From positions 4,464,001 through 4,528,000 of the forward strand of contig CDPCPM010000323.1 in assembly GCA_976551045.1 (NCBI GenBank): a stretch of 64,000 nucleotides of DNA, written 5' to 3'. Below are positions 27,470 to 27,521 of this stretch, piece by piece (positions within the stretch are counted from its first letter, which is position 1; each line of letters begins with the position of its first letter). The notes under the pieces are model-generated. The model searched no databases and had not been told where the DNA came from. It saw nothing but the letters and a program-made list of their open reading frames with translations. Position numbers and translations under genes: made by a program. The DNA is from Glaucostegus cemiculus. Taxonomy: Eukaryota.

Positions 27470-27521
27470 CAAACATCATTGCTTGCAATTGTCTTTGTTC
27501 AGTGTCCGAAATTATTTGCAT
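27470..27521 (-). CDS. NR2F2: Candidate alternative first coding exon of a DBD-less NR2F2 isoform
   Basis: acgATG (A at -3), then MQIISDTEQRQLQAMMF + G|gtatgt. Phase 1 matches exon 2 and gives 284 aa. Resembles the N-terminus of the human alternative isoform as I recall it (MQAVWDLEQGKYGF-AVQRG). Confidence 0.7.

What the first reader, a model, noticed from the sequence alone, without database searches (positions are those of the whole stretch)
27470..27521. Hidden alternative first exon predicting an ancient DNA-binding-domain-less COUP-TFII isoform
Seen: 4.8 kb upstream of the canonical ATG, acgATG opens 17 codons (MQIISDTEQRQLQAMMF) followed by G|GTATGT, a good phase-1 donor that joins exon 2 in frame (…MMF-AVQRGRM…). 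This gives a 284-aa LBD-only protein. Known (recall): human NR2F2 has an upstream-promoter isoform of about 281 aa starting MQAVWDLEQGKYGF-AVQRG that lacks the DBD and is proposed to modulate the full-length receptor. The pattern MQxxxDxEQ...F, the phase and the upstream position all match. Inference: the truncated isoform predates the split of cartilaginous and bony fish, which argues it is functional (a built-in modulator or dominant-negative partner) and not mammalian transcriptional noise.
Basis: partly seen in the sequence, partly recalled or inferred. Interest (0 to 1): 0.8.

Follow-up and report, generated by a model that had tools for sequence, protein, structure and literature searches.

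The report
Ancient DNA-binding-less COUP-TFII isoform exon
A short upstream first exon of the developmental regulator gene NR2F2 (COUP-TFII) in a cartilaginous fish is spliced past the DNA-binding exon in a related species' RNA and matches the truncated isoform known from humans and mice, so this likely modulator isoform is probably as old as jawed vertebrates.

Summary
The peptide ranks 1 of 2,095 ATG-to-phase-1-donor candidates in the window against database Iso2-type N-termini, which I found in mammals, birds, turtles, lizards, amphibians, reedfish and teleosts. The gene is NR2F2, and the genome is most likely a cartilaginous fish. In 2 of 4 RNA-type runs laid (two species, two studies) a contig covers the exon and leaves the genome exactly at 27470. 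One shows the other side of the junction: it is not the predicted acceptor 21561 but an AG 21 bases upstream (21582). That is still in frame and gives 291 rather than 284 residues. The 27470-21561 junction itself was not seen. This is the orthologue of human NR2F2-Iso2/V2, which dimerises with full-length NR2F2 and raises or lowers its activity by context. Function in fish is inferred. The isoform is known; its depth beyond mammals was not found in print in my searches. Verdict: new member of a known kind, interest 0.4.

The parts
27470..27521 (-). Coding part of the alternative first exon (17 codons + 1 base), ending at a phase-1 GT donor
   Evidence: Sequence; rank 1 of 2,095 against Iso2-type N-termini; contigs of X5 and X14 leave the genome at 27470 with 0 differences in these 52 bases
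27522..28146 (-). 5' leader of the alternative exon. Holds six upstream ATGs
27648..27738 (-). Leader element resembling the collinear position upstream of the paralogue NR2F1 (contains CAGGTG; donor-like CAG|GTGAG not seen used)
   Evidence: local score 56; 0 of 200 shuffles reach it (max 45), but 39 real control segments reach up to 53; suggestive only
22332..22743 (-). Canonical coding exon 1 of NR2F2 (A/B region and zinc-finger DNA-binding domain), skipped by the alternative isoform
21562..21582 (-). 21-base in-frame 5' extension of exon 2 from an upstream acceptor (TGTAG|TCTG); adds 7 residues
   Evidence: The 29-base loose end of the X5 contig at 27470 equals window 21582-21554 exactly
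21034..21561 (-). Exon 2 (hinge and most of the ligand-binding domain)
   Evidence: best PDB match 3cjw_A COUP-TFII, E 1e-96; NR2F2-type residues
19393..19667 (-). Coding part of exon 3 (end of LBD with the dimer-interface leucines, AF-2 region, stop)
   Evidence: 2 differences in 90 aa from a mammalian Iso2-type record; the LL pair at Iso2 positions 231-232 is intact

Best explanation
This is the first exon of a second, upstream NR2F2 transcript whose donor at 27470 is spliced past the DNA-binding exon in a related species' RNA, and it likely makes a ligand-binding-domain-only COUP-TFII that is predicted to tune the full-length receptor by dimerising with it. Shown: exon, frame, donor, transcription and donor use in two related species, one junction (to 21582), intact LBD. 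Inferred: a promoter near 28.1 kb; use of acceptor 21561 as well; translation from 27521 despite six upstream ATGs; Iso1/Iso2 dimers through the conserved leucine pair that shift DNA occupancy and cofactor use up or down by context, as in human cells. Selection seems to act on having an ATG in phase 1 more than on the peptide, which varies from 13 to 17 residues.
For: Rank 1 of 2,095. Iso2-type N-termini in named records of primates, bats/shrew, dog, parrot, turtles, lizards, frogs, caecilian, reedfish (MQSAVEAEQRKYAF, 281 aa) and three teleosts. X5 (organism B, study P2): a contig covers 27470-27705 and its loose end is window 21582-21554, a GT-AG junction in frame. X14 (organism E, study P6): a contig ends exactly at 27470 with no depth on the intron side. 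All 7 differences in these relatives fall in the leader, and their 1-base gap at 27608 closes the in-frame upstream ATG 27686 after 32 codons while 27521 stays intact. The Leu231/Leu232 needed for human Iso2-Iso1 binding (PMC10073109) are conserved. The genome has clustered fused V-J immunoglobulin genes (22 of the 30 V-set loci fetched end in an F/W-G-x-G J motif, counted by eye), a cartilaginous-fish trait (abstract of PMC2193156).
Against: 2 of 4 runs (X1, X12) laid nothing on the exon. Contigs give no level, strand or start. The lack of coding differences is not significant (p = 0.18), and X5 and X14 carry the same differences, so they count as one lineage. Peptide identity to Iso2 is low (3-6 identical residues, with a 3-4 residue gap). 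Six uATGs may damp translation. There is no protein evidence in any fish. No cartilaginous-fish record with this N-terminus was among 337 proteins held, though only 15 of 136 members of the relevant cluster could be listed.
Confidence: 0.8

Rival explanations
1. The conserved unit is an upstream promoter or regulatory element. Its transcript is spliced into exon 2, but the protein is incidental or poorly made, or starts at the Met in exon 2 (261-aa isoform-c type).
For: Six uATGs in the leader; a weakly conserved peptide of variable length; a leader element shared with NR2F1 where no Iso2-like peptide exists; 261-aa records starting at the exon-2 Met are common.
Against: An ATG in phase 1 with a recognisable MQ..D/E.EQ..F peptide is kept from cartilaginous fish to mammals. 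Both acceptors keep the frame. Human Iso2 protein is detected with a specific antibody (PMC10073109).
Confidence: 0.13
2. The exon is real but arose independently in cartilaginous fish; the likeness to human Iso2 is convergence on a short peptide.
For: Low identity and a 3-residue length difference; DNA-level alignment to bony vertebrates could not be run here.
Against: It is the best of 2,095 candidates and lies upstream with the same phase. The reedfish peptide is intermediate and shares MQ and EQR.
Confidence: 0.05
3. Chance ATG and GT, not an exon.
For: The donor is only moderate; 2 of 4 runs show nothing.
Against: Contigs from two studies leave the genome at exactly 27470, one into exon 2 by a GT-AG junction.
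Confidence: 0.02

Closest known systems
Human NR2F2-Iso2 / COUP-TFII variant 2 (NM_001145155, isoform b) and its mouse orthologue
   Same: Alternative upstream first exon, DBD skipped, LBD and dimer interface kept (PMC10073109 passages and section 11; PMC7016888 and PMC5785710 passages). The N-terminal pattern MQ..D/E.EQ..F-AVQRG and about 281 aa are seen in database records. CpG-rich start region.
   Different: 17 rather than 14 codons. The junction seen uses an acceptor 21 bases upstream (+7 residues, 291 aa), which none of the bony-vertebrate Iso2-type records held shows. Function is untested in fish.
Annotated Iso2-type NR2F2 records of bony vertebrates (reedfish P0127, teleosts P0014/P0017/P0177, amphibians P0128/P0133/P0136)
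   Same: Same junction position before AVQRG, short Met-initiated peptide ending in a hydrophobic residue.
   Different: 13-14 codons; predicted annotations with no function reported in the papers I found.
DBD-less NR2F1 isoforms of amniotes (MFGY-SVQRG, P0149; other short N-termini)
   Same: The paralogue also has annotated LBD-only forms joined at the same phase-1 site.
   Different: No such peptide exon was found in 20 kb upstream of NR2F1 exon 2 in this genome; only a modest leader similarity.

Membership tests
NR2F2 (COUP-TFII) gene | NR2F2-type rather than NR2F1-type hinge/LBD residues, with a separate NR2F1 in the genome | tested here: met
   The window differs from an NR2F1 record at 4 diagnostic sites where it equals NR2F2; the paralogue on G000:C149 is identical to the NR2F1 record over 175 aa
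NR2F2-Iso2/V2 | Alternative first exon upstream of canonical exon 1 | tested here: met
   4,778 bases upstream; transcribed in X5 and X14
NR2F2-Iso2/V2 | Spliced in frame to exon 2, skipping the DBD exon | tested here: met
   Junction 27470-21582 in X5, in frame
NR2F2-Iso2/V2 | Use of the canonical exon-2 acceptor (…F-AVQRG) | tested here: inconclusive
   Not seen. The X14 contig ends at the donor without loose letters, which fits a fork between two acceptors but does not show it
NR2F2-Iso2/V2 | N-terminal peptide homologous to MQAVWDLEQGKYGF | tested here: met
   Rank 1 of 2,095; pairwise scores 0-21 against 12 references
NR2F2-Iso2/V2 | Intact LBD and dimer-interface Leu231/Leu232 | tested here: met
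   5 differences in 265 aa from a mammalian record; LL intact
NR2F2-Iso2/V2 | Own promoter controlled by CpG methylation | tested here: inconclusive
   CpG o/e 1.0-1.4 at 27001-28000, but the whole 18-35 kb domain is CpG-rich; contigs cannot show a start; methylation was not testable
NR2F2-Iso2/V2 | Protein made; binds and modulates full-length NR2F2 | not testable with these tools
   Shown in human cells only (PMC10073109 section 11)

The most novel reading that the evidence does not exclude
The upstream, DBD-skipping transcription unit is older than the NR2F1/NR2F2 duplication (a collinear leader element and an ATG-A|GTATGT site survive upstream of NR2F1). In NR2F2 it is coupled to a second, frame-preserving acceptor conserved across jawed vertebrates, giving an undescribed longer (291-aa) LBD-only variant: a built-in modulator switch as old as the vertebrate COUP-TF family.
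Probability: 0.25. Interest if true: 0.6.

Novelty: new member of a known kind. Interest (0 to 1): 0.4.

Why it matters
The papers I read describe the DBD-less isoform only in human and mouse, and its normal role is open; it is studied mainly as a melanoma metastasis driver and a context-dependent modulator. Finding the same exon, phase and donor in a cartilaginous fish, and in annotations of reedfish, teleosts and amphibians, points to retention since the origin of jawed vertebrates and so to a developmental role. It makes an isoform-specific knockout in zebrafish, frog or catshark a direct test. It is a useful dating result for nuclear-receptor specialists, not a new mechanism.

Tried and rejected
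(1) Search with the exon's read-through frame among longer proteins: 3 candidates, none at E<=10; weak evidence. (2) Search aimed at the 7-residue extension: 59 hits, none with the window's N-terminus or extension. Only cluster representatives are searched and 15 of 136 members of the main cluster were listed in both look-ups, so absence from databases is not shown. (3) Idea of a mini-intron from CAG|GTGAG (27657) to an AG near 27543: rejected, as both contigs cross it unbroken. (4) In-frame upstream ATG 27686 (55 extra codons) as the real start: rejected, as it is closed by a 1-base gap in both relatives. (5) An Iso2-like or MFGY-like coding exon upstream of NR2F1: none among 294 candidates in L010, L011 and the first 360 bases of L012. 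(6) No holder is listed as RNA on record; X1 and X12 laid nothing, which is no evidence of absence. (7) A lay spanning both exons was not obtained, so there is no joint table. (8) Rosa & Brivanlou 2011 (PMC3025464) was not held; it and Yamazaki 2013 are known to me only through citing passages. (9) No earlier findings of this scan. (11) dN/dS was not computable: no coding differences in the two relatives.

Full report
Observation. The minus strand carries a three-exon COUP-TF gene: coding exon 1 at 22743-22332, exon 2 at 21561-21034 and exon 3 from 19667 to the stop at 19393. Joined to 21561 it gives 284 aa; one search printed values one residue too high because my exon-3 start included three intronic bases.

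Which gene, which animal. The genome holds three close matches to exon 2. The window has NR2F2-type residues at the four sites where it differs from an NR2F1 record, and the copy on C149 is identical to that NR2F1 record over 175 aa. The best PDB match is COUP-TFII. Of 30 V-set loci fetched (of 150 matches listed), 22 end in an F/W-G-x-G J motif in the same frame, many in tandem clusters (counted by eye). Clustered fused V-J genes are a cartilaginous-fish trait (PMC2193156, abstract read). The clade is therefore inferred, with high confidence.

Homology to the known isoform. A search with exon 2 and cluster look-ups returned named records whose residues before AVQRG are MQAVWDLEQGKYGF (primates, dog, meerkat), MQAIWDLEQGKYGF (bats/shrew, turtles, parrot), MQAIWDLEQGKY[VA]L (lizards), MQA.WDA.QGKYVF (frogs, caecilian), MQSAVEAEQRKYAF (reedfish, 281 aa) and MHPA.D.SA..AF (three teleosts). 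The human record itself was not among those listed. Scored against 12 of these, the window's peptide is first of 2,095 ATG-to-phase-1-GT candidates on both strands (13.4; next 6.75). The references are partly redundant and the gap costs were my choice. The donor on its own is ordinary.

RNA. One search listed 24 runs, 18 guessed to be RNA; I laid 4 of them on 27380-27705. X1 and X12 laid nothing. X5 and X14 (two organisms, two studies) each gave one contig covering 27470-27705 with no depth on the intron side. The X5 contig continues with 29 loose bases identical to window 21582-21554: the donor is joined to TGTAG|TCTG, 21 bases upstream of the predicted acceptor. This is a GT-AG junction in frame, adding VCSFRTA and giving 291 aa. 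The X14 contig stops exactly at 27470. My inference, from recalled assembler behaviour, is a fork between two continuations, such as both acceptors; for the same reason X5 does not exclude use of 21561. Both contigs run about 430-440 bases further upstream, which would put their ends near 28134-28146, but contigs cannot show a start. Their six substitutions and one gap all lie in the leader (p = 0.18) and are the same in both runs. The gap closes the in-frame upstream ATG 27686, leaving 27521 as the shared start.

The second acceptor may be old. Genomic read-through proteins of NR2F2 type from unnamed sources read RIQASISVVSLFTA-AVQRG and QILIAVVSSLFTA-AVQRG where the window reads [20 protein letters not shown]. 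The intron end is thus conserved, and the VV pair that holds the upstream AG in the window would lie 18 or 21 bases from the main AG. I could not see their DNA, so this is inference. No Iso2-type record held uses the extension.

Mechanism. In human cells Iso2 comes from an upstream, methylation-controlled start, lacks the DBD, co-precipitates with Iso1 through Leu231/Leu232, and both raises and lowers Iso1 chromatin binding (PMC10073109: 12 passages and section 11 read). A review and a stem-cell paper place the isoform in human and mouse (PMC7016888, PMC5785710: passages read). The window's LBD differs from a mammalian Iso2-type record at 5 of 265 residues and keeps the leucine pair. I therefore expect the same mechanism in this fish: a separately regulated LBD-only partner that tunes the full-length receptor. 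Translation, dimerisation and effect are inferred, not shown. Six upstream ATGs are the main doubt.

Paralogue. Upstream of NR2F1 a 90-base stretch resembles window 27738-27648 and lies in order between two strong paralogous blocks. It beats 200 of 200 shuffles, but real control segments come close (53 against 56), and the BLASTN E-value of its core is 0.32. An ATG-A|GTATGT site follows at L011 6286-6295, but no Iso2-like peptide. This is a lead only.

Novelty. The isoform is known and is annotated across bony vertebrates. Four searches aimed at its evolutionary depth gave no paper on it in cartilaginous fish or on its age; I judged from listings, the library lacks most subscription journals, and I read no supplements. 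An annotated shark or ray record may exist among the 121 cluster members I could not list. Verdict: new member of a known kind; interest 0.4; confidence in the best explanation 0.8.

Noticed in passing
window 32414-32501 and L010 7498-7584: An 88-base non-coding block 85% identical between the NR2F2 and NR2F1 upstream regions (E 9e-21), collinear: a likely duplicated enhancer kept since the paralogues split.
   Followed up: no
window 20395-20455 and L012 1570-1630: A 62-base element in intron 2 shared with NR2F1 intron 2 (82%, E 3e-8); 3' UTR (18886-19188), proximal promoter and 5' UTR blocks are also shared.
   Followed up: no
window 21558-21564: Tandem CAG-CAG acceptor at exon 2; use of the second AG would drop one alanine. 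One NR2F5-like record (P0189) reads RREVQRG without it.
   Followed up: no
window about 18500-35000: A roughly 16-kb CpG-retaining domain (o/e mostly 0.4-1.4) against 0.16 beyond 36 kb, where LINE-like reverse-transcriptase fragments appear (44-52 kb; identified by recall): typical of a developmental-gene low-methylation valley.
   Followed up: partly
window 19667-19690: The exon-3 acceptor is AAG (TTAATGAAG|AT), a rarer form; the frame and the paralogue alignment support it.
   Followed up: partly
G000:C50, C157 (L016-L045): Long tandem arrays of germline-fused V-J light-chain genes and one fused heavy-chain V-D-J (L026).
   Followed up: no
G000:C15:8508079 (L013-L015): A third COUP-TF paralogue (76% identical in exon 2, with a roughly 10-kb first intron), NR2F6-like by recall; no similarity to the alternative-exon leader (score 35).
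   Followed up: partly
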